This document shows positions 6,215 through 19,560 of a stretch of 64,000 nucleotides of DNA, one piece after another (within the stretch, counting starts at the first letter, position 1; each line of letters begins with the position of its first letter). The notes under the pieces were generated by a model, which did not search any database, was not told where the DNA came from, and saw nothing but the letters and a program-made list of their open reading frames with translations. This DNA is from an uncultured PS1 clade bacterium (GTDB taxonomy: Bacteria; Pseudomonadota; Alphaproteobacteria; MED-G09): the NCBI GenBank assembly GCA_902537725.1, contig CACBCD010000005.1, positions 279-64,278 of the forward strand, written 5' to 3'. The position numbers and the translations under genes are program-made.

Positions 6215-6290
6215 GCCGACGTAGCTCAACTGGTAGAGCACCTGATTTGTAATCAGGGGGTTGGGGGTTCAAGTCCCTCCGTCGGCACCA
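6215..6290 (+). tRNA. tRNA-Thr (anticodon UGU)
   Basis: Cloverleaf folded by hand. Acceptor stem GCCGACG/CGTCGGC, anticodon loop TTTGTAA, T-loop TTCAAGT, encoded CCA. Confidence 0.9.
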
Positions 6291-6291
6291 T
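6221..6291 (+). repeat. Direct repeat copy 1 (attL core), corresponding to the 3' 70 nt of tRNA-Thr
   Basis: Identical 71-bp string GTAGCTCAACTGGTAGAGCACCTGATTTGTAATCAGGGGGTTGGGGGTTCAAGTCCCTCCGTCGGCACCAT is found again at 19459-19529. Confidence 0.85.
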
Positions 6292-6388
6292 TAAATTTTC
6301 TTAATAGCGAAACCCTGCCCTTTTCTAATATTCACTGTGTGTAAGCCTCAATGAATAATTGCAAGATTTGCCCTCTTTTACAAGCGCA

Positions 6389-6410
6389 TTGTGCCAATAC
6401 TGTGCCAAGA
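6389..6410 (+). promoter_or_regulatory. GTGCCA-N5-GTGCCAAGA motif (putative integrase arm-type site), left island end
   Basis: TTGTGCCAATACTGTGCCAAGA lies ~100 bp inside the repeat. A near-identical motif lies at 19359-19380. Confidence 0.35.
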
Positions 6411-6597
6411 ATCATGGAGGTATGGGCCACTGCCCCTATGGGGGATATCTATAAACAATAAAGACAGAAAATGTGTGCTTTAGATGTTAACCAGTTTTAA
6501 GACTCATAGAGAATCACAGGGAGGGATTATTATTTAAGGAGTCTAGGAGATTCAAAAAGTTTAAATGAGTCTGAGTGAGTCTGTATGAGCCTTAAAT

Positions 6598-7332
6598 TCA
6601 CCTTGTTATCCTTGTAATACATTGATTTGGGTTATCTTCATCAAAGTAATCACTTTCAACTTTTTTAATCACTTTAAAACCTGTTCCATCTGACTGATAG
6701 GTTATTACTGTGGAAGTACAGACATCACTACTAACCCTACTCGTAAGTGTTTTTTGTTCTATATCAATTTCTGCATTACCTTGAAAAGAAATAGTAGGAA
6801 TAGCTTCATACACGTTATCTATTTTTTCTAATTCATAAATTTGATATTTTTGATAACCCCGATTCCCACCAAAGGTTCCAATAATGATTTCATCATCACC
6901 ATCAAAATCAATATCAAATATTCTTATGGGTTCGTACTTTGATAAATCTGGATCTGGTTTATTTAATTTAATTGGGAAATTAATGCGGCATGTATCTTTA
7001 GATTGATCGCTATACCACTCCAAACATTTATATTGTAATGGTGGTAAGGCAAAATCTTTATCAATTTGAATATTTATATGTATTCCTAACTCAGATGATA
7101 TAAATCGTATGTCAGCCTTTCCTGTAATGTGATTTAAAATATCCCCAACCACAAGAATTTCAAAAGTGCCAACCACCATTATGTCTTCAAAACCCTGAGT
7201 GTAACTAAAATTAAGTTGTACTGGGGGATTTTCTTCAACTGGATGTTTTAGGATTTTAAAAACAGAGGCATTACTTTGTCCCTCAAAACAAAGAAGAAAA
7301 ATTAAAACTAATAAAAACTTAAACAACTTCAT
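6598..7332 (-). CDS. Secreted hypothetical protein (FG-GAP/VCBS-like DxDxDGDDE segment)
   Basis: Signal peptide MKLFKFLLVLIFLLCFEGQSNA. Translationally coupled to the upstream gene. Confidence 0.5.
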   Translation of the reverse strand: MKLFKFLLVLIFLLCFEGQSNASVFKILKHPVEENPPVQLNFSYTQGFEDIMVVGTFEILVVGDILNHITGKADIRFISSELGIHINIQIDKDFALPPLQYKCLEWYSDQSKDTCRINFPIKLNKPDPDLSKYEPIRIFDIDFDGDDEIIIGTFGGNRGYQKYQIYELEKIDNVYEAIPTISFQGNAEIDIEQKTLTSRVSSDVCTSTVITYQSDGTGFKVIKKVESDYFDEDNPNQCITRITR

Positions 7333-8075
7333 TCCTCAATGACCATAATATTATTATCTTTAAATTTTGTAATAATTCTTGAAACCTTAATGGTGTCCTC
7401 TAAGGGGTCATACTTACTTTTATAGTGTCCGATCACAATATCATTACCGTCTAATTTTAAAAATTTTTCATTATAGCCAACACTTATTTCTCCAACTTTA
7501 TAAACAAGGTGTCTTTCACGTCCATCTAAATAAAGGTTATATTCATCCTCATCATTCTCACTTTTAGATGATGTAGAATAATCTATATCAAGACCAAAAT
7601 CTTTTACGATACGAACAAACATAATTGTTCTTGAGGTTAGACTGCCTCCGCCATTTTCAAATATACGATATACATGAATATCATTATGTATGGTGCCTAC
7701 ATAACTATAAGAAAAAAAAGCTCTAGTATCGCCATATTCGCTTCGTTCAGAATAAGTTATACAATTCTTTTTTTCTTCATTATCGCCACAATAAATTCTA
7801 TCACCTCCTATGAAGAACCTATTGCGATCAAATTGTTTATCAAGCTGTATAGCTACAATATCATCGAAGTTAGTAGTGTCTGATATCCATACTGATAATT
7901 TCTCTAATATTAGAGGATTAATTTCTTTTGGATCTATTTTATTTTCGGCATGTAAATTATGGGAACAAAACATGAATATAGCGCTTAAAAACACGAAATT
8001 TAGAAAATATTTATTTGGCTTAATTCCGCCCTTAATACTGGTTAACAGCCATTTTAGGGGCTTGTAATTTGACAA
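7329..8075 (-). CDS. Membrane-anchored or secreted hypothetical protein
   Basis: N-terminal hydrophobic segment; 4-nt overlap with the downstream gene. Confidence 0.45.
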   Translation of the reverse strand: MSNYKPLKWLLTSIKGGIKPNKYFLNFVFLSAIFMFCSHNLHAENKIDPKEINPLILEKLSVWISDTTNFDDIVAIQLDKQFDRNRFFIGGDRIYCGDNEEKKNCITYSERSEYGDTRAFFSYSYVGTIHNDIHVYRIFENGGGSLTSRTIMFVRIVKDFGLDIDYSTSSKSENDEDEYNLYLDGRERHLVYKVGEISVGYNEKFLKLDGNDIVIGHYKSKYDPLEDTIKVSRIITKFKDNNIMVIEE

Positions 8076-8221
8076 ATTGAAACTCCTTCATTAGACTGGT
8101 GTCACTATCCCGCCGGGGATTATATATATAGTATATCTATTACCCTAATCTATTCCCTATTAAGTATATATTAAGTACCCAAGCAGGTGATTACCTATTA
8201 TTTTATATGATTCTATAAGGT

Positions 8222-8722
8222 TTACCTCTTATTAGAGTTATTCCTTCTCCATTCCCATGGTTTTATAAACTTACTTCTCCATAACCCTCTTTTATTCTCT
8301 TTAGCTAACTCTTCTTCATCAATATAATCTTTAGAATACTTTCTATATGCTAGAGCATATCCCTCTCTAACCATAATACTTCCTATATCCATACGATTAT
8401 CATCTTTAAAGATATAGCATCGAGCTAATATTCTTTTATAGCGATCTTGTCCTAGTTCCTTACAATCAAATCCATCTGTTCCATGCAATTGCTCAAGATA
8501 TAAAGCCGCTGCTAATCCACATTCCCAATCCCGATTATTAAGGGTACAGATTTGATTAATCTCTGGTGCATCCATACCCTCTAGGCGATAACGAATACCA
8601 TTGCGTTTTAGAGTATCGCCATCAGTGATAGAATAGGTTTGAGGATTCCAATCCTTAGCTTGAACATTTAGGGTTAAAAAAAGAAAGGTAAGAAGAGTAT
8701 AAAAAATATATTTAATATTCAT
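8222..8722 (-). CDS. Secreted thermonuclease (staphylococcal-nuclease-like, SNc) family protein
   Basis: Signal peptide and SNase motifs DGDTL...RLEGMDAPE. Confidence 0.6.
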   Translation of the reverse strand: MNIKYIFYTLLTFLFLTLNVQAKDWNPQTYSITDGDTLKRNGIRYRLEGMDAPEINQICTLNNRDWECGLAAALYLEQLHGTDGFDCKELGQDRYKRILARCYIFKDDNRMDIGSIMVREGYALAYRKYSKDYIDEEELAKENKRGLWRSKFIKPWEWRRNNSNKR

Positions 8723-8736
8723 ACGCTATAAGAATT

Positions 8737-9141
8737 TTATTCATTTGTTTTATTTTCAAGATTATTACTTATTATTTTTCCATCTTTCACAGAATAATAA
8801 AAAGATCCAAATCCAGAGAAATATATCAATAAATCAGTAATTAGACTTTGTTTTATATTATTGAAAATAATTGAATCAATTATAAGAAATAAAAAAAATA
8901 AAGATGGTATAATTAAAATTAACTTTGGATCGTAATTTTTATAAATATTAGTTAAAATCTCTCCAGTTAAGCCTGATGCTATAGATGAACCAACCACAAG
9001 CATAAATGACATAACAAAAAACCAATCCATTAGTTCTTCATTAATTAATAATGGGATAAACATTGAGAATAATAAAAAAATAATAAAATAGATTGGAGGG
9101 TACAAGGCAGATATCATTACTGTAAAAATTTTATTTTTCAT
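8737..9141 (-). CDS. Small polytopic membrane protein
   Basis: About four hydrophobic helices; 134 aa. Confidence 0.4.
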   Translation of the reverse strand: MKNKIFTVMISALYPPIYFIIFLLFSMFIPLLINEELMDWFFVMSFMLVVGSSIASGLTGEILTNIYKNYDPKLILIIPSLFFLFLIIDSIIFNNIKQSLITDLLIYFSGFGSFYYSVKDGKIISNNLENKTNE

Positions 9142-9178
9142 AATTAGACCTTAGACTAAATTATATAGTTTTTTAATT

Positions 9179-9973
9179 TTAATTATTCGCTAAATTTAAT
9201 AAAGGGTGAGTTTTATAAAATTCTTCACTCCAATACCCTTCTCTTAATAACTCATTCTCTATTTCTTTTGCGTGATTTTTAGATAGTTTAAAGGTTCTGT
9301 ATTTATTAAATAAATCTATTCCATAGCTATTAGGATTTATAGCAAAAATATGATACCAAAAATTTAAAACTGGTGACATCCAATTTTGTTTAGGACTATA
9401 GCTAGAATACAAAACCCTATTATTTTCATGTAGATACCCTCTAATCATTCCATCAGTTTCTTTCTTGTATAAAAGATCCCTCTCTGTTGCCATTTTGTTA
9501 GTAACATCAACAAGTTGATAATTTATGACTGAATAAATCTTTGTAATTAATCCATAACCAGCATTAGGACCCCATTTACGACCATGGCTTCCAACTACTG
9601 CTGTAACCTCACATACACCATCATTATTAAGGTCTAAAATATTGATTTCTCTATGGAAACCAAGATGTGCTAATTTAGCTGGTTCACTATCACCATATTT
9701 ATCTGGGTTCCCTTTTTCTATGAATGTTAGACCATGGCTTCTAGCCGTGCCTGTACCTCCAGTCTTAACGATATAAAAATCATGATACCCTTCATGTGGA
9801 TACTGATTTTTTGGATCAAGACACCAGTATAATCTAAAACCATGAAGTTCTTTTGCAGAAATCCAATTACCAGCCTTATCTGATGTTACAACATATGCTT
9901 TTACCTCAGTTGAGAGGGTAAAAATGCTTATGCATAGAGCTAAACAAATCTTATATATTGAACTAGTGCTCAA
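9179..9973 (-). CDS. Secreted hypothetical protein
   Basis: Signal peptide ending TEVKA; 11-nt overlap with the upstream MORN gene. Confidence 0.5.
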   Translation of the reverse strand: MSTSSIYKICLALCISIFTLSTEVKAYVVTSDKAGNWISAKELHGFRLYWCLDPKNQYPHEGYHDFYIVKTGGTGTARSHGLTFIEKGNPDKYGDSEPAKLAHLGFHREINILDLNNDGVCEVTAVVGSHGRKWGPNAGYGLITKIYSVINYQLVDVTNKMATERDLLYKKETDGMIRGYLHENNRVLYSSYSPKQNWMSPVLNFWYHIFAINPNSYGIDLFNKYRTFKLSKNHAKEIENELLREGYWSEEFYKTHPLLNLANN

Positions 9974-10643
9974 ATTTACGTTCTCCTAAAAAATCATCAG
10001 GATCAATATCGTTAAGTATTTCTCCGTCCTCATTCCAGAATGTGTATTCGGAAGAAATTTCACCATTGATATATTTTATTTCAGCCATAATTTGGCCATT
10101 TGCATACCATCGTCTCTCTAAACCATGAAGGACACCATCAAGAAACTCTCCCTCAATTTTCTTTTTTCCATCTGAATAATACTGCGTCTCTAATCCATTT
10201 TGATGCCCATCTTTAAAATTTCCCACAGCTTTTAAATTTCCATTAGGCCACCAGGCTTTAGAAATCCCTGTATGATGATCATCTTTAAACTCAGCAAAGC
10301 CTAAATATGATCCATCCTCATACCAAGACTCCATTGATCCATTTTTAACACCACCTTTATATTGAATTTTTGCTTTTAATTGGCCATTAGGAAAATAGTA
10401 GATTTCAAATCCTTCCTGAATATCATTAATAAAGACTAACTCTTTTTCAATATTACCATCACTATCATAGTGAATTTCTTTTCTTTGCTTATTCCAAAAT
10501 TTATTAGAGCTAACTACTTCAATCTGGCCAGTGGAGGTTTTTATAATTTCTTTTTGTTCATTTGAATAAATAAAATATCCAACTAAAAATAAAGCTACAA
10601 CAAAGATAAATAAAAATTTTATTTTCTTATTTTTCATTTTCAT
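9963..10643 (-). CDS. MORN-repeat (YwqK-like) protein, membrane-anchored or secreted
   Basis: Repeated YxxNGxL(K/E)...G motifs and an N-terminal hydrophobic anchor. Confidence 0.6.
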   Translation of the reverse strand: MKMKNKKIKFLFIFVVALFLVGYFIYSNEQKEIIKTSTGQIEVVSSNKFWNKQRKEIHYDSDGNIEKELVFINDIQEGFEIYYFPNGQLKAKIQYKGGVKNGSMESWYEDGSYLGFAEFKDDHHTGISKAWWPNGNLKAVGNFKDGHQNGLETQYYSDGKKKIEGEFLDGVLHGLERRWYANGQIMAEIKYINGEISSEYTFWNEDGEILNDIDPDDFLGERKFEH

Positions 10644-11868
10644 CCAGATCTAATGTTTTTAAAAACGAAGCTATTTGACTGACCTCTTTATCGTTTAAAT
10701 ATTGCACAATTTCGTTTGTATCATTCTTTGCAAGATACTTATTATACTGATGCCTTTGCAGTGGTGTCATTTTTTTTGCATCAAAAAATTGCAGTGGATC
10801 AAAGTGATATTGTATTGTTTCATCTAATGACATTACTGCCCCAGAATGGCTGTATGGTCGTGTTTTGGAGACATTATGTAGAGAGGGGGTACGAAATTTA
10901 TATTGATCCTCGGGATTGAACGTAGAATTATAAAGTCCATAATCAATACCAAACCCATTTTTTCCAAATCCTAATTGAGGAAAAGGAACAGTATAAAAAT
11001 TAAAATCTGAAAAGTATGGTCCACTATGACATGACACACATCCACCTTTTCCATAAAATAGTAAGCCTCCATTTAACTCATCTTCATTAAGAGAAGTTTC
11101 ACCTTCAATAAACTTACTGAATTTTGATGGTCTCAATTTAAATTCTGAACGTATAAAATGTGCAAGCGCTGTTGCAATATTAATAAATTCTATCTCTTCA
11201 AAATTCACGCCAATTTCTTTTGCTAGTTTTTTCATTAAAGCAGGTTCTTTAACAATTAAATTTTCAACAACTCTTTTATAAATTTCATCCGCTGCACTTG
11301 TTGTTTCTTTTTTAAAGCTTTTTACCACATAGTCCTCTTGAAGAGTTTCCCTTATCTCCACAACAGGAAGGTGAACAGCTGTAATAAGGAGGTCTTCACT
11401 TGGTGTATCTTTTCCAAATTGACTTGTAATAGTTTCACCAGATCTACTTACTCTTCCATCCCAGAAAAAAGTTGAGAAACCTTTTCCTCCTACTCCCCAT
11501 AGGGCAAGGGTATTTCTAGGAACAACCTTACCACCAGCTTTATAACGAGATATTCCTTCACCATCTCCTCCTATCCCTATAGCATTTGGTAATCCATCAC
11601 CGGAGGCAGCCTTATCAAAATGACAGCTAACACAGGCAACTCCTCCATTTAAGCTAAGATTTTCACTTTCAAAAAGATCTTTGCCAATGGCTGCCATATT
11701 TTCATCTACTGGAATATGTGTTGATGAAGGTAAGTCATAACCTGATGCTTTGGCTCTCTCTTTAATAATGGACTCTTTGTAAACATTGCTGGCCTGAGCC
11801 TTCAAATTGCCATAAAAATTAAAAAGGAAAATTAAGCAAAAAATAAAAGTTTTAATATTTAAATTCAT
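10627..11868 (-). CDS. Di-heme cytochrome c peroxidase / MauG-like enzyme
   Basis: Signal peptide and two CxxCH motifs (CVSCHFDK and CVSCHSGPYF), with CCP/MauG architecture. Confidence 0.8.
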   Translation of the reverse strand: MNLNIKTFIFCLIFLFNFYGNLKAQASNVYKESIIKERAKASGYDLPSSTHIPVDENMAAIGKDLFESENLSLNGGVACVSCHFDKAASGDGLPNAIGIGGDGEGISRYKAGGKVVPRNTLALWGVGGKGFSTFFWDGRVSRSGETITSQFGKDTPSEDLLITAVHLPVVEIRETLQEDYVVKSFKKETTSAADEIYKRVVENLIVKEPALMKKLAKEIGVNFEEIEFINIATALAHFIRSEFKLRPSKFSKFIEGETSLNEDELNGGLLFYGKGGCVSCHSGPYFSDFNFYTVPFPQLGFGKNGFGIDYGLYNSTFNPEDQYKFRTPSLHNVSKTRPYSHSGAVMSLDETIQYHFDPLQFFDAKKMTPLQRHQYNKYLAKNDTNEIVQYLNDKEVSQIASFLKTLDLDENEK

Positions 11869-12247
11869 GGGTCTCTATAAATGTATCTATATGTGTATTG
11901 TTTTCTTCTATGGCTTCAAGACCTAATTTAGATAGATCATTAGGACTAACCCCCCACGAAATCATAAATTTTCTTAGTTTATCATAGTCATGACAATGTA
12001 CTAATCCCACTTCAGACATTTCTAATGCTTTCAAAGATTCCATAGATTTTTCAACTGTAACTCTATTCTTTGCTATTAAATGATTGCGCATAGCACTATC
12101 ACAGATAAACATTTTTTCTTTATATTCTTCTCCATAAAAATTATTTACGGCATAAGGTGCTACAATAAATTTTACTGCAAGGGCCAAACAGGATAAGCCA
12201 GCAACAACATTGATTAATACAAGAAATTTTTCAGATTTTTTCAACAT
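11852..12247 (-). CDS. Small membrane-anchored hypothetical protein
   Basis: N-terminal transmembrane helix; overlaps both neighbours. Confidence 0.4.
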   Translation of the reverse strand: MLKKSEKFLVLINVVAGLSCLALAVKFIVAPYAVNNFYGEEYKEKMFICDSAMRNHLIAKNRVTVEKSMESLKALEMSEVGLVHCHDYDKLRKFMISWGVSPNDLSKLGLEAIEENNTHIDTFIETHEFKY

Positions 12248-12642
12248 TGTAATAACTCTCTTGTTTTTTCATCAATTATTCCCGATGGATTTAAATTATT
12301 ATTATATTGAAAGTACAATGTTTCAACCAGAACCTCATGACTGGTTATGTCTTCGATATTGGCAAAGTTATGGCCTTGATCATTCATCTTCACCAAACAC
12401 CCAATCATCCATGGTGCATCTTTTTTTATTCTCTCTTTGCGCTCTTGCTCAAGGGCGACTGCAGGATTAGCAGGTAACACAAAAGTCCTAGGTGTACTTC
12501 CCTCGTTTCTTCCTCCTTCAATCTCAACTTGAATTGGGGCTTTAAACAAATCTTTTGCATATAATAAAAATCCAAATGGAGTAATTGTTACAAGATAAAG
12601 AAGTGTTAAAGAAAAAATTAAAATAAAATTTCGCTCAGACAT
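12241..12642 (-). CDS. Small membrane-anchored hypothetical protein
   Basis: N-terminal transmembrane helix; immediately downstream of hxsC. Confidence 0.4.
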   Translation of the reverse strand: MSERNFILIFSLTLLYLVTITPFGFLLYAKDLFKAPIQVEIEGGRNEGSTPRTFVLPANPAVALEQERKERIKKDAPWMIGCLVKMNDQGHNFANIEDITSHEVLVETLYFQYNNNLNPSGIIDEKTRELLQC

Positions 12643-13812
12643 TTATGAAAAAGCCTTTATATGATCACTATGTTTATAAAGAATTTGAGATGAGAAAAAA
12701 CCACCACATTCATGCTTACGCGAACATTTATTGCATTCATCTAAATATTCATTTTTCCAGTCACTGATTGAGTGAACATAATTATCTTCAACATCTGGGT
12801 TAACAGTGCATAACTGATGATTATAAACAGAATTATTTATTTTACTTCTGTTTAAGACAGCAACGGCCTGACTTAGAGTATCTTTATAGTCATAAGGATC
12901 AATCCATAAATCAGGTAAATTTGCCCGTGTAAATCCAGTTATTTCAAGTCCCATCAAAGCAACATGATCAACGAATAGAAGGTTACGAGAAATATATTCA
13001 CAGGTCTCAACAAGTCGTCCTATTGTTTGCTGATGAATGACAATCCTAATTTCTACTTTTTGATTCAAAGCTTTTAAATTTAAAATACCCTGAATTGTTT
13101 CATCAAATGCATCTTCAGATTGAACAACATAATTATGAATTTCAGGTACATCTGAATAAATTGGAATACAGATCATACAATTAGGATGATCTATTTTATG
13201 TAAAAGTCTTGCATATTCAGGATCGGAGAATGCTCTACCATTAGATAATATATCAATAGCGGTTTGTGGAAGGTAACCTCGACACTTCTCTACTAAGTCA
13301 ATTAACTTTTCTTTATAAATAGTAGGCTCACCACCAGAAAATCCCATACGTACTGTGTCACGAGGAATTAACTCTATGGCTTCCATAGCTCTCTCCAGCA
13401 ACCATGAGTCTTCTTTAGATTTTGGTGGTTGAGAACACATTAAACAATAATGATTACAGCGTTCGGTTAATAAAAAAGTATTGTATTTTGCATTACTTCT
13501 AAAGATTGCCCAAATACTTCCATCATCTTTAAAGTTAATAATATCCCCAGCTTCCATATAATCCATATATTGAGGAATATGGAACCAATTCTTATGCTTA
13601 GAAGTACTAAAAACTGATGCATTTTGCGATATATAAGCACCAAAACCATCTGGTAAATTAGTATCTATGTTTTCTTTAAGAATGTAAGCATACTTTTCAC
13701 GAAGGGGAAAAGGTAAGCTACTATCATCAGAAATAATAAGCATTTTGTGACCGATAAAGTCACAATGAAAATCTTTTGTGGATCCTCTTAATTGAAGCAT
13801 TAGTTTATCCAA
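12643..13812 (-). CDS. hxsC: Radical SAM maturase, His-Xaa-Ser system HxsC-like
   Basis: CxxxCxxC motif (CNHYCLMC); paired with the second rSAM; lies in an operon with the HXS-repeat precursor. Confidence 0.6.
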   Translation of the reverse strand: MDKLMLQLRGSTKDFHCDFIGHKMLIISDDSSLPFPLREKYAYILKENIDTNLPDGFGAYISQNASVFSTSKHKNWFHIPQYMDYMEAGDIINFKDDGSIWAIFRSNAKYNTFLLTERCNHYCLMCSQPPKSKEDSWLLERAMEAIELIPRDTVRMGFSGGEPTIYKEKLIDLVEKCRGYLPQTAIDILSNGRAFSDPEYARLLHKIDHPNCMICIPIYSDVPEIHNYVVQSEDAFDETIQGILNLKALNQKVEIRIVIHQQTIGRLVETCEYISRNLLFVDHVALMGLEITGFTRANLPDLWIDPYDYKDTLSQAVAVLNRSKINNSVYNHQLCTVNPDVEDNYVHSISDWKNEYLDECNKCSRKHECGGFFSSQILYKHSDHIKAFS

Positions 13813-15281
13813 CTTTCAAAAATAGAACGGGTTTCCAAATTGGAATCATAGGTATCCAACAAATGACTAAAAGTATTATAATTTCTGTAGCAAAAATCTG
13901 ATTCTGCTTTTTTCCCTAAAAAATCCCCTGTAGTAGCATAATGAAATACAGGATCTGCTCCGCAATATTGCTCAAAAGCACATTCACTACAACGCGGTGC
14001 GCTTGTTGTCATAGATTGTTCAAGAGGATCGAGAAGTTTATCGCTTAAAAATACATCTTTAAAATTATCTGTCGCAAGATTTCCAATTTCAAAAGTATTA
14101 TCACCCATTTCGGCAAGCATTCTTCCTTCATCAGAGGCAAATATCTTGCCATCATAATTATATACTATACCACCAATACCAATCCCTGCTGGGGATCGAA
14201 GGTCAACATAACCGGGGTCTTTGAGTGTAAGTATTTTTTTCAAAATTGTAGCAGAATAGAATTCTCTAAAATGAACACCTGATTTATTTATTTCTAATAT
14301 ATATTCTAAACCAGTCTTATAAAATTCAAACCACTTCTTACTTCCATAGGCATTGTATTTTTTAGTTTTAATAGCAAATCCGTAAGGTGATAAAGGTCTT
14401 AAAAAAATTCCAGAGAATCCCTGTTTTAAATATTCATCAATTATTATTCTTGGATCATCTAAGCTCTTATCTGTTGTTGTCATTAGGGCATTCACTTTAT
14501 CAAAGCCAAGCTTTTCTCTAACTTTTTTTATTCCTTCAGTTGCCAACTCATAACTGTTGTTGCCAGGTCTTGGCCTATTGTGATTATGTAAAGATGCTGG
14601 CCCGTCTAATGATGTGGAAATCTCTATATCATGAAGTTTACAATAATCTAAAATTTCATCAGTAATAACAGCTAGATTTGTTGCAATTACAAAAGATAAA
14701 TCCTTCCCAATAGCCTCATTTTTTTCTTTAGCATCATGAACAATGAATTTAAGAGTATCAAAATTTAATAAGGGTTCACCACCTTGAAATTCTATCTTTA
14801 TTCTTGGCGATGGTCCTGACAGTGCAAAATCAACAGCTTTTGAAGCAGTTTCATAGGACATATCAAAGGCAAGCTTATCATCAGATTGTCTTGAAACCTG
14901 ACAATAAGGACAACTATGTTCACACCGAAGAGAGATTACAAACATATGAAGAGATGTAAGATTGGAATAATTTGAGAGCTTTGTTCGTGTTTTTATTCCT
15001 AATAATTGTTTAGCCGATTGTGTTTGGTCGTCACAAATAAAATGTAAGGATCTAAGATTTAAATAATCATCAGAATCATTTGGAAGGGTTCCATCAACTA
15101 AACTCTTTAGAACCTCATCTTTCGTAAAGAAATATTCTCCTACTAAATTTGTAAGTAAAACTCTTCCATTGATACGTGCAAAACGAAAGGGAAGAAGCTC
15201 ATAACTTTCATTAGTATTTTGAAAAAAATTTTGCTTTTGAAACTTAGTCATTATCAGAAAGTCCAGATTTTGAAAAAGCAA
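13800..15281 (-). CDS. hxsB: Radical SAM/SPASM maturase, His-Xaa-Ser system HxsB-like
   Basis: CEHSCPYC rSAM motif, plus a C-terminal SPASM-like CSECAFEQYC. The true start may be the internal Met at 15251. Confidence 0.65.
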   Translation of the reverse strand: MLFQNLDFLIMTKFQKQNFFQNTNESYELLPFRFARINGRVLLTNLVGEYFFTKDEVLKSLVDGTLPNDSDDYLNLRSLHFICDDQTQSAKQLLGIKTRTKLSNYSNLTSLHMFVISLRCEHSCPYCQVSRQSDDKLAFDMSYETASKAVDFALSGPSPRIKIEFQGGEPLLNFDTLKFIVHDAKEKNEAIGKDLSFVIATNLAVITDEILDYCKLHDIEISTSLDGPASLHNHNRPRPGNNSYELATEGIKKVREKLGFDKVNALMTTTDKSLDDPRIIIDEYLKQGFSGIFLRPLSPYGFAIKTKKYNAYGSKKWFEFYKTGLEYILEINKSGVHFREFYSATILKKILTLKDPGYVDLRSPAGIGIGGIVYNYDGKIFASDEGRMLAEMGDNTFEIGNLATDNFKDVFLSDKLLDPLEQSMTTSAPRCSECAFEQYCGADPVFHYATTGDFLGKKAESDFCYRNYNTFSHLLDTYDSNLETRSIFESWIN

Positions 15282-15543
15282 AGGCTAGAATTAAATTTTT
15301 AACTCCATCTGTTTTATTTGCTATTTCAATTCTTAACTCTTGATCTAAAACTTCATTACGAAATTCAATTTCAAAGTCTTCATAATTATCAATTGTAGAA
15401 TCTTTTTTAGGAATTATCTTACAGATATAACTGCTTTCATCTTCAGAAATATCTAATGCACATCTATCAGAAAAAACATAAGCAGCTTTCTTAATTGCTT
15501 CTAGACTAGTGCACTGACTATCAAAGTTCAGTGATGACGACAA
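15244..15543 (-). CDS. hxsD: His-Xaa-Ser system protein HxsD-like
   Basis: 99 aa acidic protein with VLDQELRIE, which resembles the HxsD LLNDYxLRE signature. Lies between the precursor and the rSAM genes. Confidence 0.5.
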   Translation of the reverse strand: MSSSLNFDSQCTSLEAIKKAAYVFSDRCALDISEDESSYICKIIPKKDSTIDNYEDFEIEFRNEVLDQELRIEIANKTDGVKNLILAFAFSKSGLSDND

Positions 15544-15545
15544 TT

Positions 15546-15809
15546 TTAGTAACCAGAGCTGTGAGAAGAATGTGAGCCGTGAGAGCCGTGAGAGCCGTGA
15601 GAACTATGAGAGCTATGGCCAGCGGACTGGATAGCATCATTATCATTTCCATTATTTTCCATCAAAAGTTCAGATAATATTGGATTATCAATTTGAAGTT
15701 TTTTACCAGTTTGTTCTTCATATACATTACTAGCATGACTAGTTATTGCTCCTGCAGCGACTACTGCAACCGCTGAACTTAAACCTATTAAAAATTTCTT
15801 TTTTGACAT
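15546..15809 (-). CDS. hxsA: His-Xaa-Ser repeat precursor peptide HxsA-like with Sec signal peptide
   Basis: MSKKKFLIGLSSAVAVVAAGAITSHA signal peptide. C-terminus HSSHSSHGSHGSHGSHSSHSSGY, i.e. seven H-x-S repeats. Confidence 0.65.
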   Translation of the reverse strand: MSKKKFLIGLSSAVAVVAAGAITSHASNVYEEQTGKKLQIDNPILSELLMENNGNDNDAIQSAGHSSHSSHGSHGSHGSHSSHSSGY

Positions 15810-16429
15810 AATAATTTTTCACTAATTGATAAAACACTAACGATTCTTCTTAAGCCTGTCAAATTATTGTATTTATTAATAAAAAACTTTAAATTTTTTT
15901 AAATTAGATTACCATATTTATTAGTACAGGGAGGTATTTGATTTCATAGTAGAATTAGCAGCGATAGTTTTTTTATTACTTACGGCACCATTTTGGTTTC
16001 CACTCTTACTAGGACTTTTGCAATTCTCTCTAGTTATAATAATTCCTCTTTTATTCATTTTAGGCCTTGTAGCGATAATCGCTGTAATTGCCTGATATAG
16101 TTTAATCATTTGGAGGAAATATGACATTAGACACATTCACATCAGTAATATCCATTAGCGTCGTAGGGCTAATTATTTTTGGAATTGCTTTTTTATTAAT
16201 AGTAAAAATTTCTCCTTTTTCTGTAAAAAAAGAGATTGAAGAAGATCAAAATACATCACTTGGAATACTTATCGGAAGTATTTTTATCTCTTTAGCAATT
16301 ATAATAAGTGCTGCTATCAGCTAATTATTAAAACCTAAACGAGAATAAAAAAATAACTAGTATTGTGACTTGGTTACTTCCAAAAATATTTTCCCTTTAC
16401 TAAAAAGATTTATTTAGTATTTTAAAAGA

Positions 16430-16577
16430 ACATCATGAGAGAGTGTAAACTCCGCCAACCAGCCTTAATCGGGCAACGGTGGTCCAACGATGTGGTTTTA
16501 GGATAAGACCTTGATAAAGGCACCAAAACAACAATACGATTGAGGCTCTTACGATGTTTTTCGTAGGGGCTTTTTTT
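16430..16577 (+). ncRNA. GC-rich structured leader or small RNA ending in an intrinsic terminator
   Basis: Local GC is far above its surroundings. Ends with hairpin GAGGCTCTTACG/CGTAGGGGC plus a T7 run at 16542-16577, directly upstream of ORF 16599. No riboswitch class could be assigned by eye. Confidence 0.3.
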
Positions 16578-16598
16578 ATGTCTCTACTTAATTATTAA

Positions 16599-16793
16599 AT
16601 GGAGACAAAAATGAATAAAAAAAATGATATGGATCTCATTAATCAATTAATGAAAGAAAGAAGAGATGCTATACATAGCTATGGCTTTGATTCTGAAAAC
16701 TTTAAAAAAATTGATGCAAAGTTTCAAAAATTATTAAATAAATATAACCTTATTCACACTGAACTAACTTTGGGATGGAAACAAAATAAGTAA
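16599..16793 (+). CDS. Small hypothetical protein (64 aa)
   Basis: ORF immediately after the terminator-containing leader. No recognisable domain. Confidence 0.3.
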   Translation: METKMNKKNDMDLINQLMKERRDAIHSYGFDSENFKKIDAKFQKLLNKYNLIHTELTLGWKQNK

Positions 16794-18069
16794 AGTAATT
16801 AATATTGATAATAAGTTTACCTTTATAGATTTATTTGCAGGTTGCGGGGGTCTCTCCCTTGGTATGGAAAAAGCTGGTTTTTTTCCATTATATGTAAATG
16901 AACTGAATAACGATGCTCTTGAAACTTACTTAGTAAATAGAGAAAAGTTTTTTCCTCACTTAAGGAATAAATATAATTCAAATGATATAAAAGATGTAAT
17001 TTCTGATAAAAATTTTTTTAATAATTTATTTAAAAATTTAAAAAACGATTTCAATAGAGATTTTAAAAAAAATTCTATCGATTTAATAACTGGAGGACCT
17101 CCCTGCCAAGGTTTTTCAGGTATGGGAATAAGAAGATCTTACTCAGTTGAAAAAAAACAGCTTCCATCAAATCATCTCTATCAGGATATGGCTTTTTTCA
17201 TACATCAGATTAGACCAAAAATATTTTTATTTGAGAATGTTGAAGGCCTAATAAGATCAAGATGGACAAAAAATGGAGAAAAAGGTGAGATATTTAATGA
17301 TGTATTAACAACATTCAGAAATATTCCAAATTACAATGTAAAATATAAACTTATCTATGCAAAAGATTATGGTGTTCCTCAAAATAGACCTCGAGTTTTA
17401 ATTGTAGGAATTCGTAAAGATTTCTCAAATAATTTTTTAGATGATGATGCTGTTTTAGCGGAATTTCTTCCTTTTCCTACATCAGATTATCCGGATATAG
17501 AGGAAATTTTTTCAGATATTATTGATGATAATTTTGTTTACGGGGAATCAACAAATATATATAAAAATGATCCCTTAAATAAATGGCAGGAGAACATTAG
17601 ATTTAATCCATTTACTAAGCAGATCTTAAAGAAAAATGATCCACTTACAGATCAACAATATAGTAGGCATTCTTTAAAGGTAATTGAAAAATTTACTTAT
17701 ATGATAAAAAATAATGGAGAAATTCCAGAGCATTTAAAAACTAAAAAATTTTCTCAAAGAGTTCTTCCAAGTAAGTGGGGTAATAAAGGACCCACTATAA
17801 CAGCATGTTCATTACCCGATGATTTCGTTCATTACAGTCAGCCAAGATCATTAACAGTTAGAGAATGGGCAAGACTACAAACTTTTCCTGACTGGTATGA
17901 ATTTAAAGGAAAAAGGACCACAGGCGGAATAAGAAGAGCAGGTAATCCAAGAAAGTCTATTTTTGATAGGGAGGTTCCAAAATACACTCAAATTGGTAAC
18001 GCTGTTCCAGTTAAACTAGCTTTTGAAATAGGCAAACATTTTGTTAAAATTTTAAAAAATTATAACTAA
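16786..18069 (+). CDS. DNA (cytosine-5)-methyltransferase, Type II R-M
   Basis: Motif IV GGPPCQGFS, ENV motif FLFENVEG, motif X QIGNAVPV. Motif I FIDLFAGCGGLSLG is encoded upstream of the first ATG at 16864, which implies a non-ATG start (ATA 16786 or ATT 16798). Confidence 0.8.
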   Translation: MSKVINIDNKFTFIDLFAGCGGLSLGMEKAGFFPLYVNELNNDALETYLVNREKFFPHLRNKYNSNDIKDVISDKNFFNNLFKNLKNDFNRDFKKNSIDLITGGPPCQGFSGMGIRRSYSVEKKQLPSNHLYQDMAFFIHQIRPKIFLFENVEGLIRSRWTKNGEKGEIFNDVLTTFRNIPNYNVKYKLIYAKDYGVPQNRPRVLIVGIRKDFSNNFLDDDAVLAEFLPFPTSDYPDIEEIFSDIIDDNFVYGESTNIYKNDPLNKWQENIRFNPFTKQILKKNDPLTDQQYSRHSLKVIEKFTYMIKNNGEIPEHLKTKKFSQRVLPSKWGNKGPTITACSLPDDFVHYSQPRSLTVREWARLQTFPDWYEFKGKRTTGGIRRAGNPRKSIFDREVPKYTQIGNAVPVKLAFEIGKHFVKILKNYN

Positions 18070-18085
18070 AGAAATTTATAATTAG

Positions 18086-19264
18086 ATGCTAATAAATGCA
18101 AATATTGATATTCTAGAAACTCTGTCCGCCTTTAGAGCCGAAGGGTTAAGGGTGGCTTTTTTAGTACCCACAGAAACCGGTTTAAAAAAATCAATAATGG
18201 ATGCAACTCAACAGTTTAGGGAGTTCCTCTCCAATGAAGATATTCATAATTTTGATAATCAAAATCAAGGAACTGCTAATAAAAAACTGATAGAAACTAT
18301 TTTAATATCCAAAAATAATTACTTCCAAACCAAAACATCTCTATATAGACCAGAAACAAAAAAGGGGGACCCAAGAATATGGGTGTATGAGTTAGGCCAA
18401 CATGCTTCAGAGGGTGATCTCCTAGCATTTTTATCTTCTAAAGAACAGTTAGTCGTAATCAATTGTAGTAACTGCAACCTTAAGGATTTATTTGAATCCA
18501 TAAAATTAAAGATACCCAATATTCTATCTTTTGAGACTTCATCAATATCAGACGAATTACTTAATAAAATGAAAGGAATATCTAATAAAGGTTTCATTAA
18601 ATCTCTTAAGACAGGAGATACTGGCGTGGGATTTACCCTAGAAACTCTTTTGGGTATCCAAGCAAATTCATCAAAAACACCTGATTATAAAGGAATTGAA
18701 ATTAAATCAATTAGACGTAGAAATCCGAAAGGAACTTTTTTTAGTATGGCGCCTGACTGGAAAAAAAGTAACCTTACAGATATAGAGCTTATTGAAAAAA
18801 GGGGATACTACACTGAAAAATTTGGTCCTCTAAAATCTCTTCACCAAACACTATCAACCAAAAAGAACAAACGTAATTTAAAATTATTATTAGAAGAAAA
18901 AGATATCTATGGTGGTTTAGAGAGTAATAATATTTTTGAAAAAGATGTTTATTGGTCTTTGGAAGAGTTGCAAAAAAGAATAACTGCCAAGCACAAAGAA
19001 ACATTTTGGATTGATGTAGAGACAAAAGGATCAGGTATTAATGAAGAATTTAAATATAGATCAATAACCCATACCTCTGATGTAGACATCGGGGTGGTTC
19101 CATTATTATTGGAACAAGGGATGATTACTCTTGATTACGTACTTTGGGAAAAAGGAAAAAATTGGAAAAGTTATACTAAAAAAAGTGGCTATGATTATTT
19201 ATGGAAAATTAAAAAAAAGAACCTTGATACCTTATTTAAGTATATAAAAATATACGATTTATGA
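18086..19264 (+). CDS. Putative Type II restriction endonuclease, partner of the C5-MTase
   Basis: Co-oriented, 16 nt after the MTase. Possible PD-(D/E)xK-like segment PDYKGIEIKS. No other homology recognised. Confidence 0.45.
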   Translation: MLINANIDILETLSAFRAEGLRVAFLVPTETGLKKSIMDATQQFREFLSNEDIHNFDNQNQGTANKKLIETILISKNNYFQTKTSLYRPETKKGDPRIWVYELGQHASEGDLLAFLSSKEQLVVINCSNCNLKDLFESIKLKIPNILSFETSSISDELLNKMKGISNKGFIKSLKTGDTGVGFTLETLLGIQANSSKTPDYKGIEIKSIRRRNPKGTFFSMAPDWKKSNLTDIELIEKRGYYTEKFGPLKSLHQTLSTKKNKRNLKLLLEEKDIYGGLESNNIFEKDVYWSLEELQKRITAKHKETFWIDVETKGSGINEEFKYRSITHTSDVDIGVVPLLLEQGMITLDYVLWEKGKNWKSYTKKSGYDYLWKIKKKNLDTLFKYIKIYDL

Positions 19265-19347
19265 ACTTTATGTTTATAAAGGTAAGGCGTACCATTTTTA
19301 TTATCTTGTGCTCGCCACTTGTTTTGTCGTTTTGTAATACTAGCCAT
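19265..19347 (-). pseudogene. Remnant of a tyrosine integrase N-terminus (arm-binding domain)
   Basis: Minus-strand ATG at 19347 gives MASITKRQNKWRAQDNKNGTPYLYKHKV, which resembles MASIRKRGNSWQAQ-type integrase N-termini. The reading frame then runs into the 3' end of the REase gene. Confidence 0.3.
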
Positions 19348-19358
19348 GTCTTCCTCCC

Positions 19359-19380
19359 GTGCCATAATTGTGCCAAGAGG
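19359..19380 (+). promoter_or_regulatory. GTGCCA-N5-GTGCCAAGA motif (putative arm-type site or int promoter), right island end
   Basis: CGTGCCATAATTGTGCCAAGAGG, just upstream of the int remnant and 79 bp from the attR repeat. Confidence 0.35.
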
Positions 19381-19458
19381 CTTATCAACGTAATGAATAA
19401 AAGTTTGCCTATTGCTTTAAAACCGCTTCCATACTAAATAATGAGTATGAGAAATGGT

Positions 19459-19529
19459 GTAGCTCAACTGGTAGAGCACCTGATTTGTAATCAGGGGGTT
19501 GGGGGTTCAAGTCCCTCCGTCGGCACCAT
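19459..19529 (+). repeat. Direct repeat copy 2 (attR), a truncated tRNA-Thr 3' fragment
   Basis: Identical 71 bp to 6221-6291. Its 5' flank AATGGTG cannot pair with CGTCGGC, so it is not a functional tRNA. Confidence 0.85.
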
Positions 19530-19560
19530 AAATATTTTTTAAAATTTTGGTATCAATCAT

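What the first reader, a model, noticed from the sequence alone, without database searches (positions are those of the whole stretch)
9179..15809. The Hxs operon continues into a MauG-like di-heme peroxidase, two small membrane-anchored proteins, a MORN protein and a secreted protein
From hxsA at 15809 down to 9179, nine minus-strand genes overlap or abut (4 to 38-nt overlaps) with no room for internal promoters. After the rSAM genes come two ~130-aa single-TM proteins. Next is a signal-peptide di-heme CCP/MauG-family enzyme with two CxxCH sites. Last are a MORN-repeat protein and a secreted 264-aa protein. MauG-type di-heme enzymes oxidatively modify protein side chains in the periplasm. Pairing a periplasmic protein-modifying di-heme enzyme with cytoplasmic rSAM maturases around a His-rich secreted peptide suggests two-compartment maturation. 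The product could be a metal-binding or redox-active peptide. A TonB-dependent receptor sits just outside the island next to the tRNA and could import such a peptide, but this link is pure speculation.
Basis: inference. Interest (0 to 1): 0.85.

Follow-up and report, generated by a model that had tools for sequence, protein, structure and literature searches.

The report
HXS defence operon with di-haem module
This is a His-Xaa-Ser (HXS) radical-SAM operon of the database-curated but unstudied subtype that adds three or four cell-envelope proteins, including a di-haem enzyme; it sits on a 13-kb mobile island, and relatives of its core genes were recently shown to block phage DNA entry.

Summary
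The interpretation needs trimming.

- **Conserved unit:** seven genes, hxsA(short)-hxsD-hxsB-hxsC-P5-TIGR03982-"MauG-like".
- **MORN gene:** follows only in the window's nearest clade.
- **264-aa protein:** strain-variable cargo, absent from a 98%-identical strain and from all 160 related loci.
- **Prior knowledge:** the Hxs–di-haem link is already curated (NCBIfam TIGR03981/TIGR03982, both above cut-off; PGAP uses these names).
- **Function:** a 2026 paper showed that E. coli hxsDBCA is an anti-phage system blocking DNA entry in the periplasm. A metallophore reading is therefore unlikely.
- **TonB receptor:** it is a core gene outside a 13.2-kb tRNA-Thr island that ten near-identical genomes lack.

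New observations here:
- P5 is the peptidoglycan-binding C-terminal part of canonical HxsA, so HxsA is split.
- P5 carries an N..STP...(V/I)LP motif seen only in di-haem-associated systems.
- The di-haem enzyme has an invariant His where MauG and MbnH have the axial Tyr that MauG/BthA mutants show is needed for bis-Fe(IV) chemistry.

The best reading is a defence-type HXS variant with a second, periplasmic oxidative step. That function is inferred, not shown.

The parts
15546..15809 (-). hxsA, short form (87 aa): signal-peptide-like N-terminus, spacer, and seven C-terminal His-Xaa-Ser repeats ending SHSSGY
   Evidence: It matches TIGR03979 only over model positions 9-79 of 190 (33 bits, below cut-off). 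Short HxsA genes upstream of hxsD occur in 74 MauG-less and 24 MauG-bearing relatives.
15244..15543 (-). hxsD (99 aa), cytoplasmic partner of HxsC
   Evidence: TIGR03976, 63.2 bits against a cut-off of 50. Present in 80 of 80 genome loci.
13800..15251 (-). hxsB, radical SAM/SPASM maturase (483 aa from the ATG; CEHSCPYC cluster motif)
   Evidence: TIGR03978, 594.9 bits against 370. Homologues are 483-485 aa.
12643..13800 (-). hxsC, second radical SAM maturase (CNHYCLMC motif; a TTG start at 13812 is also possible)
   Evidence: TIGR03977, 387.3 bits against 267.9.
12241..12642 (-). P5 (133 aa): membrane-anchored homologue of the C-terminal part of canonical HxsA. It has the RNEGSTPRTFVLPANPAVA motif and a divergent PG_binding_1-like domain, but no HxS repeats. 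No NCBIfam model covers it.
   Evidence: hhalign of P5 against long HxsA gives probability 99.5% and E 3.6e-22. PG_binding_1 is found in 20 of 20 family members, although the window's own copy scores only E 0.015. TIGR03979 hits 10 of 20 members. The motif is present in 27 of 27.
11852..12247 (-). TIGR03982-family His-Xaa-Ser system protein (131 aa): N-terminal TM helix plus a helical periplasmic domain, with conserved C49/C85, M53, H56, Y88, H127, E128 and a C-terminal Tyr
   Evidence: TIGR03982, 103.5 bits against 40. Adjacent to the di-haem gene in 76 of 80 loci. Conservation. The AF2 model has pLDDT 87.6 and is all-helical. No PDB fold match; best E 0.7.
10627..11868 (-). Di-haem bCCP/MauG-superfamily enzyme (413 aa) with a signal peptide, two CxxCH motifs and an invariant His355 at the MauG Tyr294 / CCP Met position
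   Evidence: TIGR03981, 367.5 bits against 340. Invariant residues across 41 sequences. PDB alignments. AF2 pLDDT 80; Foldseek finds bCCPs, BthA, MauG and MbnH, all near E 1e-10.
9963..10643 (-). Membrane-anchored MORN_2-repeat protein (226 aa): a clade-specific eighth gene overlapping the di-haem stop codon
   Evidence: MORN_2, 8.6e-21. Present after the di-haem gene only in L081, L082, L085, L086, L088 and L101, with overlaps of 7-22 nt in the four intact clustered copies (L082, L085, L086, L101). It is frameshifted by a 1-nt deletion in L081.
9179..9973 (-). P9 (264 aa, secreted). NOT part of the conserved system: strain-variable cargo that abuts the operon
   Evidence: Synteny with the 97.8%-identical L081 ends at 9972. 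No hit in 160 loci. Only 8 related clusters among 1.84 billion representatives.
8222..8722 (-). Secreted staphylococcal-nuclease homologue: island backbone gene and possible recurrent Hxs neighbour
   Evidence: SNase, 2.2e-12. Conserved in L081 beyond the variable cassette. Homologues lie next to Hxs genes in L026, L039, L112, L124 and L152.
6221..6304 (+). attL: tRNA-Thr (6215-6290) with the 84-nt direct repeat
   Evidence: Empty-site contigs join 6304 to 19459.
19459..19542 (+). attR: 84-nt repeat (95% identical) of the tRNA-Thr copy that lacks its first six bases. This is the end of the 13.2-kb island.

Best explanation
The locus is a His-Xaa-Ser (HXS) system of the di-haem-associated subtype. 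It is carried with a type II restriction-modification system on a 13.2-kb island inserted at tRNA-Thr.

**Shown by sequence and comparison**
- The conserved unit is seven genes: short hxsA, hxsD, hxsB, hxsC, P5, a TIGR03982 protein and a TIGR03981 di-haem enzyme.
- A MORN gene is an eighth member only in the nearest clade.
- The 264-aa gene is unrelated cargo.
- HxsA is split. The 87-aa protein keeps the leader and the HxS repeats. P5 keeps the N..STP...VLP motif and the peptidoglycan-binding-type domain, on its own membrane anchor.

**Inferred mechanism**
- HxsB, HxsC and HxsD modify the HxS repeats of HxsA in the cytoplasm, as in the E. coli system, and HxsA is exported.
- In the periplasm, three proteins carry out a second, oxidative step: membrane-tethered P5, TIGR03982 and the secreted di-haem enzyme.
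- The most likely target is the STP...VLP-bearing scaffold or HxsA docked on it. The step would fix or activate the effector at the cell wall.
- The product most likely acts as an envelope-level anti-phage barrier.
- The di-haem enzyme has a predicted His/His electron-transfer haem. It should therefore work as a peroxidase-type oxidant rather than by MauG's Tyr-stabilised bis-Fe(IV) route.
For: - **Family membership:** above curated cut-offs for HxsB, HxsC, HxsD, TIGR03982 and TIGR03981.
- **Architecture:** the same hxsA-D-B-C-P5-TIGR03982-di-haem order occurs in Flavobacteriales, Pseudomonadota, Binatia and Nitrospira genomes and in about 25 metagenome loci.
- **Coupling:** the di-haem gene always has TIGR03982 directly upstream (76/80) and HxsC nearby (43/43 loci with enough sequence).
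- **P5 is the HxsA C-terminal part:**
- **Motif distribution:** found in 27/27 P5 proteins, 28/29 long HxsA proteins of di-haem loci, and Tritonibacter. It is absent from all di-haem-less long HxsA proteins examined: Klebsiella, three Rhizobiaceae, and 12 long HxsA proteins on viral-contig loci of about 5 lineages.
- **Topology:**
- **Defence context:**
  - type II MTase 4e-68 and MvaI/BcnI REase 1.4e-48 lie next door;
  - the island is absent from 10 of 10 genomes that are 98-99.8% identical in the flanks;
  - a sister island variant carries an integrase and different cargo.
- **Published function:** E. coli hxsDBCA blocks phage DNA entry. Its periplasmic HxsA needs its peptidoglycan-binding domain and an rSAM-dependent +8 Da modification of the last repeat (PMC13128918).
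- **His355 as axial ligand:** invariant in 41 sequences. It aligns to the MbnH Tyr, MauG residue 294 and the CCP Met.
Against: - No experiment exists on any di-haem-associated or short-HxsA system.
- The window's HxsB and HxsC are only about 30-35% identical to the enterobacterial proteins, so the defence role is transferred by homology.
- Most close HxsB relatives (76 of 80) have a short HxsA with no P5 and no peptidoglycan-binding domain. That does not fit the published anchoring model and may mean this clade does something else.
- The window's own P5 matches PG_binding_1 only weakly (E 0.015).
- The substrate of the di-haem enzyme is unknown.
- The axial-ligand assignment rests on alignment, not on coordinates or spectra.
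- Co-transcription is inferred from spacing only.
Confidence: 0.6

Rival explanations
1. Partner-protein cofactor biogenesis, on the MauG/preMADH or MbnH/MbnP model. The di-haem enzyme would oxidise a residue of the adjacent TIGR03982 protein (or of P5) to create a protein-derived cofactor or metal site. The HxS peptide would be a separate or auxiliary product.
For: - TIGR03982 is always the immediate, overlapping upstream neighbour of the di-haem gene (76/80), like mbnP-mbnH.
- The best solved-structure sequence match is MbnH (6e1c, 2e-21).
- TIGR03982 has highly conserved C49/C85, M53, H56, Y88, H127, E128 and a terminal Tyr, which could form a metal or redox site.
- It has a fold with no solved relative.
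- The TIGR03982/di-haem pair keeps 41-46% identity across backbones whose HxsB drops from 57% to 31%. This suggests a self-contained module.
Against: - The module was never seen without HxsB/HxsC and an HxsA-type scaffold.
- The STP...VLP motif on the HxsA/P5 scaffold, not TIGR03982 alone, co-varies with the module.
- The Tyr ligand needed for MauG/BthA-type bis-Fe(IV) chemistry is absent.
- No dehydrogenase or MbnP-like partner is present.
Confidence: 0.2
2. A secreted RiPP-like metal-binding or redox-active His-rich peptide is matured in two compartments and possibly re-imported by the neighbouring TonB-dependent receptor.
For: - The repeats are His-rich, and HxsB belongs to the rSAM/SPASM peptide maturases.
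- The short HxsA has no anchoring domain.
- One Sphingobium plasmid Hxs locus lies near a TonB siderophore receptor and a PepSY protein.
Against: - The receptor is outside the island and is a core gene in island-free strains.
- No receptor family recurs around 80 Hxs loci.
- The unit contains no exporter or leader peptidase.
- The only tested HXS system is an anti-phage system whose effector stays in the periplasm (PMC13128918).
- The P5 partner is membrane-anchored and peptidoglycan-binding-like.
Confidence: 0.1
3. The di-haem protein is an ordinary periplasmic peroxide-scavenging or peroxide-sensing cytochrome c peroxidase. It would protect or regulate the system rather than modify a protein.
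For: - The fold is equally close to canonical bCCPs (1iqc, E 1.1e-11, is the top Foldseek hit).
- Tyr-to-His variants of BthA keep peroxidase turnover (PMC6405878).
Against: - The obligate, translationally coupled linkage to TIGR03982 and Hxs is not expected for a housekeeping peroxidase.
- The Met ligand of bCCPs is also absent.
- It forms a distinct curated family.
Confidence: 0.1

Closest known systems
E. coli/Klebsiella HXS anti-phage system, hxsD-hxsB-hxsC-hxsA (Li et al., Nat Commun 2026, PMC13128918)
   Same: It has paired radical SAM enzymes HxsB and HxsC, the small HxsD, and an exported protein with HxS repeats ending in an SH(R/S)S-type last repeat. It is mobile and strain-variable.
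   Different: - HxsB and HxsC are only about 30-35% identical to the window's.
- The gene order there is D-B-C-A.
- HxsA there is one 212-214-aa protein that carries both the repeats and the peptidoglycan-binding domain. It lacks the N..STP...VLP motif.
- It has no TIGR03982, di-haem or MORN genes.
- The paper reports that over 99.8% of systems have four proteins and does not mention haem proteins.
Curated 'His-Xaa-Ser system-associated MauG-like protein' loci (NCBIfam TIGR03981 + TIGR03982), e.g. Tritonibacter scottomollicae plasmid NZ_CP136707
   Same: It has the same TIGR03982/di-haem pair directly after the HxsA-type scaffold, and the same STP...VLP motif.
   Different: That type (also 30 marine metagenome loci) is hxsB-hxsC-long hxsA-TIGR03982-di-haem, with a single 180-216-aa HxsA. 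The window has a short hxsA before hxsD, a repeat-less P5 in the HxsA slot, and a MORN gene.
MauG (tryptophan tryptophylquinone biogenesis; PDB 3L4M)
   Same: It is a periplasmic di-haem c-type enzyme of the same fold with two CxxCH motifs and an inter-haem Trp (W136 here). It acts on a protein substrate.
   Different: - TIGR03791 scores 66 bits against a cut-off of 444.
- The axial Tyr294 is His here.
- There are no mauA/mauB genes.
- The natural His resembles the Y294H variant, which cannot form bis-Fe(IV) (PMC6405878).
MbnH/MbnP (di-haem enzyme that makes kynurenine in its partner; PDB 6E1C)
   Same: It is the best PDB sequence match (2e-21). The gene is paired with an upstream partner gene.
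   Different: - TIGR04039 scores 98 bits against a cut-off of 363.
- MbnH has Tyr where this family has His.
- The partner here is a 131-aa helical membrane protein, not MbnP.

Membership tests
HXS (His-Xaa-Ser) system | HxsB radical SAM/SPASM maturase | tested here: met
   TIGR03978, 594.9 bits against 370. CxxxCxxC and C-terminal Cys motifs are read directly from the sequence.
HXS (His-Xaa-Ser) system | HxsC radical SAM maturase adjacent to HxsB | tested here: met
   TIGR03977, 387.3 bits against 267.9, with a 1-nt overlap with hxsB.
HXS (His-Xaa-Ser) system | HxsD small protein | tested here: met
   TIGR03976, 63.2 bits against 50.
HXS (His-Xaa-Ser) system | HxsA: exported protein with tandem His-Xaa-Ser repeats | tested here: met
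   There are seven HxS repeats and an N-terminal hydrophobic leader. The score is below the TIGR03979 cut-off (33 against 121.65) because only the N-terminal part of the model is present.
HXS (His-Xaa-Ser) system | Peptidoglycan-binding domain on the HxsA effector (required in E. coli) | tested here: not met
   HxsA ends right after the repeats. A PG_binding_1-like domain is on the separate protein P5, and the window's own copy is weak (E 0.015).
HXS (His-Xaa-Ser) system | Anti-phage activity by blocking DNA entry | not testable with these tools
   Only context supports this: a tRNA island, an adjacent type II R-M system, and strain variability.
TIGR03981 His-Xaa-Ser system-associated MauG-like protein | Score above the curated cut-off and location in an Hxs locus next to TIGR03982 | tested here: met
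   367.5 bits against 340. The TIGR03982 neighbour scores 103.5 against 40. The linkage was confirmed in 76/80 and 43/43 loci.
MauG proper | His/Tyr axial ligation of the six-coordinate haem (Tyr294), needed for bis-Fe(IV) | tested here: not met
   His355 is invariant in 41 sequences. It aligns with MauG position 294 and the MbnH Tyr. The Y294H MauG entry scores higher than wild type. The role of the Tyr is taken from PMC6405878. This is based on alignment, not coordinates.
MauG proper | Two CxxCH haem sites and an inter-haem Trp | tested here: met
   C79/C82/H83 and C277/C280/H281 are invariant, and W136 is conserved in at least 90% of sequences.
MauG proper | mau cluster with methylamine dehydrogenase subunits; TIGR03791 equivalog score | tested here: not met
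   66.2 bits against 443.85. No mauA/mauB-like genes are in the island.
Canonical bacterial cytochrome c peroxidase | His/Met ligation of the electron-transfer haem | tested here: not met
   His355 sits two residues past the end of the alignment to 1IQC residue 256, at the Met258 position as I recall it from the 1IQC literature. This is an ungapped extrapolation.
MbnH family | TIGR04039 score and an MbnP partner | tested here: not met
   98.2 bits against 362.85. The partner is TIGR03982, not MbnP.

The most novel reading that the evidence does not exclude
The TIGR03982/di-haem pair could be a portable periplasmic 'finishing' module for HXS effectors. It would recognise the N..STP...VLP motif on a peptidoglycan-bound HxsA-type scaffold. 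It would then use peroxide-driven haem chemistry with an unusual His/His electron-transfer haem to cross-link or oxidise the rSAM-modified HxS peptide onto that scaffold or onto the wall.

That would make an immune effector matured in two compartments by radical-SAM and then haem chemistry. In the window's subtype, the module would covalently re-join a split effector.
Probability: 0.15. Interest if true: 0.75.

Novelty: new variant of a known kind. Interest (0 to 1): 0.45.

Why it matters
HXS was only described in 2026 as the first defence system that stops phage DNA in the periplasm, and its chemistry is unresolved. Its authors treat it as a four-gene system.

The di-haem-associated subtypes are common in marine and soil metagenomes and are named in NCBI annotation. 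The searchable literature held here does not mention either family.

If the extra module acts on the effector, three things follow:
- It would show that the effector needs, or can receive, a second oxidative maturation outside the cytoplasm.
- It would give the bCCP/MauG superfamily a new substrate class and a natural His/His variant.
- It would provide a defined motif and a naturally split effector as experimental handles.

If the module does not act on the effector, the locus is an ordinary, already-annotated member of a curated family.

Tried and rejected
- **Promoter and terminator scans** over 6300-16900 were at shuffle level, so they say nothing about operon limits.
- **PADLOC (2023)** has no HXS models. 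HxsB and HxsC hit viperin models only weakly.
- **TIGR03982 fold search** against the PDB found nothing (best E 0.7).
- **Di-haem fold search** cannot separate MauG-like from CCP-like enzymes; all score near E 1e-10.
- **Recurrent accessory genes** around 80 close HxsB loci: no TonB receptor or exporter family turned up. The only finds were lineage synteny and a methyltransferase-like ORF of about 200 aa in 12 loci.
- **ASNVY peptide** shared by HxsA and the di-haem protein after their signal peptides: not conserved in relatives, so dismissed as coincidence.
- **P9, P12 and P13** are not paralogues of one another.
- **Haft & Basu 2011** (PMC3133131) is not held, so the original description could not be read.
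- **Empty-site search:** an exact look-up of the SDR flank protein found nothing. The neighbouring nitronate monooxygenase worked.

Full report

Yes. One search lists the nine minus-strand ORFs at the stated coordinates.
- HxsB: 594.9 bits (cut-off 370).
- HxsC: 387.3 (267.9).
- HxsD: 63.2 (50).
- A 131-aa TIGR03982 'His-Xaa-Ser system protein': 103.5 (40).
- A 413-aa TIGR03981 'His-Xaa-Ser system-associated MauG-like protein': 367.5 (340); Pfam CCP_MauG 1.9e-18.
- A MORN_2 protein: 8.6e-21.

HxsA (87 aa) has seven HxS repeats at its very C-terminus. P5 (133 aa) and P9 (264 aa) match no family.

Using starts supported by homologues, the junctions are a 2-nt gap, overlaps of 8 and 1 nt, an abutment, and then overlaps of 7, 17, 17 and 11 nt. 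Hydropathy puts HxsD, HxsB and HxsC in the cytoplasm. Every other product has an N-terminal signal or anchor.

The co-directional run continues past 9179 for four more genes, down to 6598. Consensus promoter and terminator scans were at chance level. Operon structure therefore rests on spacing alone.

**2. How much of the run is one system?**

I scanned one genome per species with an HxsB alignment and kept the 80 closest loci.
- All have hxsD and 79 have hxsC. Only four also have P5, TIGR03982 and the di-haem gene: a Flavobacteriales MAG, a Pseudomonadota MAG, a Binatia MAG and a Nitrospira MAG.
- In those four the three genes always form a trio directly after hxsC, with a short hxsA before hxsD, exactly as in the window.
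- None has the MORN gene or P9.

I then scanned metagenomes with a di-haem alignment.
- TIGR03982 lies directly upstream of the di-haem gene in 76 of 80 loci. The other four start at a contig end.
- HxsC is present in all 43 loci that have at least 2.5 kb upstream.

The link is already the definition of two curated NCBIfam families. PGAP already writes these names on records such as a Tritonibacter plasmid. No paper in the searchable library mentions either family.

**3. MORN and the 264-aa protein**

A MORN gene follows the di-haem gene only in L081, L082, L085, L086, L088 and L101.
- In the four intact clustered copies (L082, L085, L086, L101) it overlaps the di-haem stop codon by 7-22 nt.
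- These loci include the window's nearest relatives, with HxsB 61-99% identical where hxsB is on the contig.
- They are about 6 of the 57 loci that have room to show it.
- It is therefore a clade-specific addition.

In L081, a strain 97.8% identical across window 9972-15912, the MORN gene carries a 1-nt deletion. This is either decay or an assembly error.

Synteny with L081 stops at 9972, one base from the start of P9, and resumes at 8723, one base before the nuclease gene.
- Between those points the window has P9 and a membrane protein (1.25 kb).
- L081 instead has 7 kb with a glucosaminidase, a 914-aa caspase-domain protein and other genes.
- P9 has no relative in any of the 160 loci, and only eight related clusters among 1.84 billion representative proteins.
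- P9 is cargo, not a system member.

**4. The island and the TonB receptor**

An 84-nt direct repeat (95% identical) at 6221-6304 and 19459-19542 corresponds to tRNA-Thr without its first six bases.

Ten of ten contigs that carry the identical flanking nitronate monooxygenase lack everything between the repeats.
- In them the SDR gene, one tRNA-Thr and the TonB-dependent receptor are adjacent.
- The five aligned at nucleotide level are 98-99.8% identical in the flanks.
- The joint falls exactly at the repeat.

So the Hxs operon lies on a 13,238-bp insertion. The same insertion holds a type II C5-methyltransferase and an MvaI/BcnI-family endonuclease. The sister island in L081 has a tyrosine integrase instead.

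The exact flank protein is on 190 contigs, while the exact HxsB is on one. The host is a common marine lineage. Sources label its proteins Pseudomonadota, Hyphomicrobiales or Rhodobiaceae MAGs.

The receptor is a core gene outside the island. No receptor family recurs around 80 other Hxs loci.

**5. What is known about HXS**

Li et al. (PMC13128918) showed the following for the E. coli hxsD-hxsB-hxsC-hxsA system:
- It protects against 110 of 113 phages by stopping DNA entry.
- HxsA (214 aa) has a leader, five HxS repeats and a peptidoglycan-binding domain.
- HxsB, HxsC and HxsD are needed for N-terminal processing and for a +8 Da modification in the last repeat.
- The mature protein works in the periplasm.
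- The paper reports four-protein systems in over 99.8% of cases. It does not mention haem proteins.

**6. New point: HxsA is split here**

Di-haem loci come in two architectures.
- *Window type:* a short hxsA (78-126 aa) precedes hxsD, and P5 sits between hxsC and TIGR03982.
- *Second type:* HxsB is about 31% identical to the window's. A long hxsA (181-216 aa) sits in the P5 slot. This type covers 30 loci and the Tritonibacter plasmid.

Evidence that P5 is the C-terminal part of HxsA:
- Profile comparison of P5 with long HxsA gives probability 99.5% and E 3.6e-22 over the C-terminal 96 columns.
- PG_binding_1 is detected in 13 of 13 long HxsA proteins and 20 of 20 P5 proteins. The window's own P5 scores only E 0.015.
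- Ten of 20 P5 proteins hit the HxsA model TIGR03979.
- The window's short HxsA covers only positions 9-79 of that 190-position model.

P5 is therefore the repeat-less C-terminal part of HxsA on its own membrane anchor.

Between the two architectures, HxsB and HxsC identity to the window falls from 57/55% to 31/33%. The di-haem enzyme and TIGR03982 fall only from 49/52% to 46/41%. The pair behaves as a module that has moved between Hxs backbones.

**7. New point: a motif that tracks the module**

The most conserved part of P5 and of long HxsA in di-haem loci is N..ST(P)...(V/I)LP, usually RNExSTPRSFVLPATPAVA.
- It is present in 27 of 27 P5 proteins, 28 of 29 long HxsA proteins, and the Tritonibacter protein.
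- It is absent from every di-haem-less long HxsA I could read. These are:
  - Klebsiella;
  - three Rhizobiaceae plasmids;
  - 12 long HxsA proteins on viral-contig loci of about five lineages. One of those lineages keeps only a partial NSTSPR remnant.

The negative set is small and is not a census. Co-variation suggests the motif is what the periplasmic module reads or modifies. This is inference.

**8. New point: 'MauG-like' is only partly apt**

- The family has two invariant CxxCH sites and the inter-haem Trp.
- The AF2 model (pLDDT 80) matches bCCPs, BthA, MauG and MbnH about equally.
- His355 is invariant in 41 sequences. It aligns with the Tyr of MbnH and with position 294 of MauG. It falls two residues after the alignment to 1IQC ends at residue 256, which is where I recall the Met258 ligand lying.
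- The Y294H MauG entry scores better than wild type.
- Tyr/His ligation is needed for the bis-Fe(IV) state in MauG and BthA. The His variants of BthA keep peroxidase turnover (PMC6405878).

I therefore predict a His/His electron-transfer haem and peroxidase-type rather than MauG-type chemistry. This rests on alignment only.

TIGR03982 is predicted with confidence as a TM helix plus a small helical domain (pLDDT 87.6). It has no solved relative. It has highly conserved Cys, Met, His, Tyr and Glu residues.

**9. Verdict**

- The system is seven genes, eight in this clade, not nine.
- The di-haem link is real but already curated.
- The metallophore and TonB ideas are not supported.

The most likely function is an envelope-level anti-phage barrier with an added periplasmic oxidative step. 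That is transferred from proteins only about 30-35% identical. In addition, most close HxsB relatives lack any peptidoglycan-binding partner. I therefore put the whole explanation at 0.6 and the specific cross-linking idea at about 0.15.

Noticed in passing
window 16425-16573 (+), with downstream genes to 19264: A SAM-I/IV riboswitch aptamer (RF01725, 51.2 bits against gathering 41.1) is followed by a terminator hairpin and a T-run. It has an alternative antiterminator pairing (MFE z-score -3.9). It lies inside the island, in front of a 64-aa ORF, a C5 DNA methyltransferase and an MvaI/BcnI restriction enzyme. A SAM OFF-switch ahead of a restriction-modification operon is unusual. It might raise expression when SAM falls, for example when a phage SAM lyase depletes it.
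   Followed up: partly
window 16765-16866 (+): The methyltransferase's SAM-binding motif I (FIDLFAGCGG, 16822-16851) lies upstream of the first in-frame ATG (16864). There is no ATG, GTG or TTG between the preceding stop and the motif. Either translation starts at a non-canonical codon, or it is coupled or frameshifted from the 64-aa ORF that ends at 16793, or the gene is damaged.
   Followed up: partly
window 8222-8722 (-); L026 8815-9192, L039 3402-3779, L112 179-556, L124 8456-8839, L152 1931-2185: A secreted staphylococcal-nuclease homologue (PF00565, 2.2e-12) is kept in both island variants. Homologues (38-44% identical, E down to 1e-30) lie immediately beside Hxs genes in five otherwise unrelated loci, with or without the di-haem module. 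A periplasmic nuclease would make sense next to a system that stalls phage DNA in the periplasm.
   Followed up: partly
window 6305-19542; L167-L176 about 11900-12190: This is a 13,238-bp tRNA-Thr island with 84-nt att repeats. Empty sites occur in 10 of 10 near-identical marine contigs. The island in the window has no integrase. The L081 variant has an integrase and a second MORN protein in place of the R-M genes.
   Followed up: yes
window 8723-9972 versus L081 7875-14919: There is a replaceable cassette slot exactly between the MORN stop codon and the nuclease start codon. In the window it holds P9 and a 134-aa multi-pass membrane protein. In L081 it holds a glucosaminidase, small secreted repeat proteins, a 914-aa caspase-domain (Peptidase_C14) protein and a sigma/anti-sigma-like pair.
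   Followed up: partly
L005 508-2284; L113, L127, L139, L140, L143, L156, L160: Seven metagenome loci plus the L005 genome locus carry a second, more divergent di-haem paralogue (26% identical in L005), either downstream of or convergent with the TIGR03981 gene. In L005 it has its own small TIGR03982-like partner.
   Followed up: no
L013, L017, L028, L035, L036, L046, L053, L054, L059, L070, L074, L078: In di-haem-less relatives with a short HxsA, an ORF of about 200 aa resembling a SAM-dependent methyltransferase recurs near hxsC in 12 loci from several phyla. It may be another optional Hxs accessory.
   Followed up: no
L023 9022-9630, L125 1092-2039, L102 893-1497: Several loci encode two or three tandem short hxsA genes with different spacers but the same HxS C-terminus.
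   Followed up: no
window 16121-16324 (+): A 67-aa ORF matches only the first half of DUF350 (profile positions 3-66 of 133). It is probably a gene remnant between the Hxs promoter region and the riboswitch.
   Followed up: no
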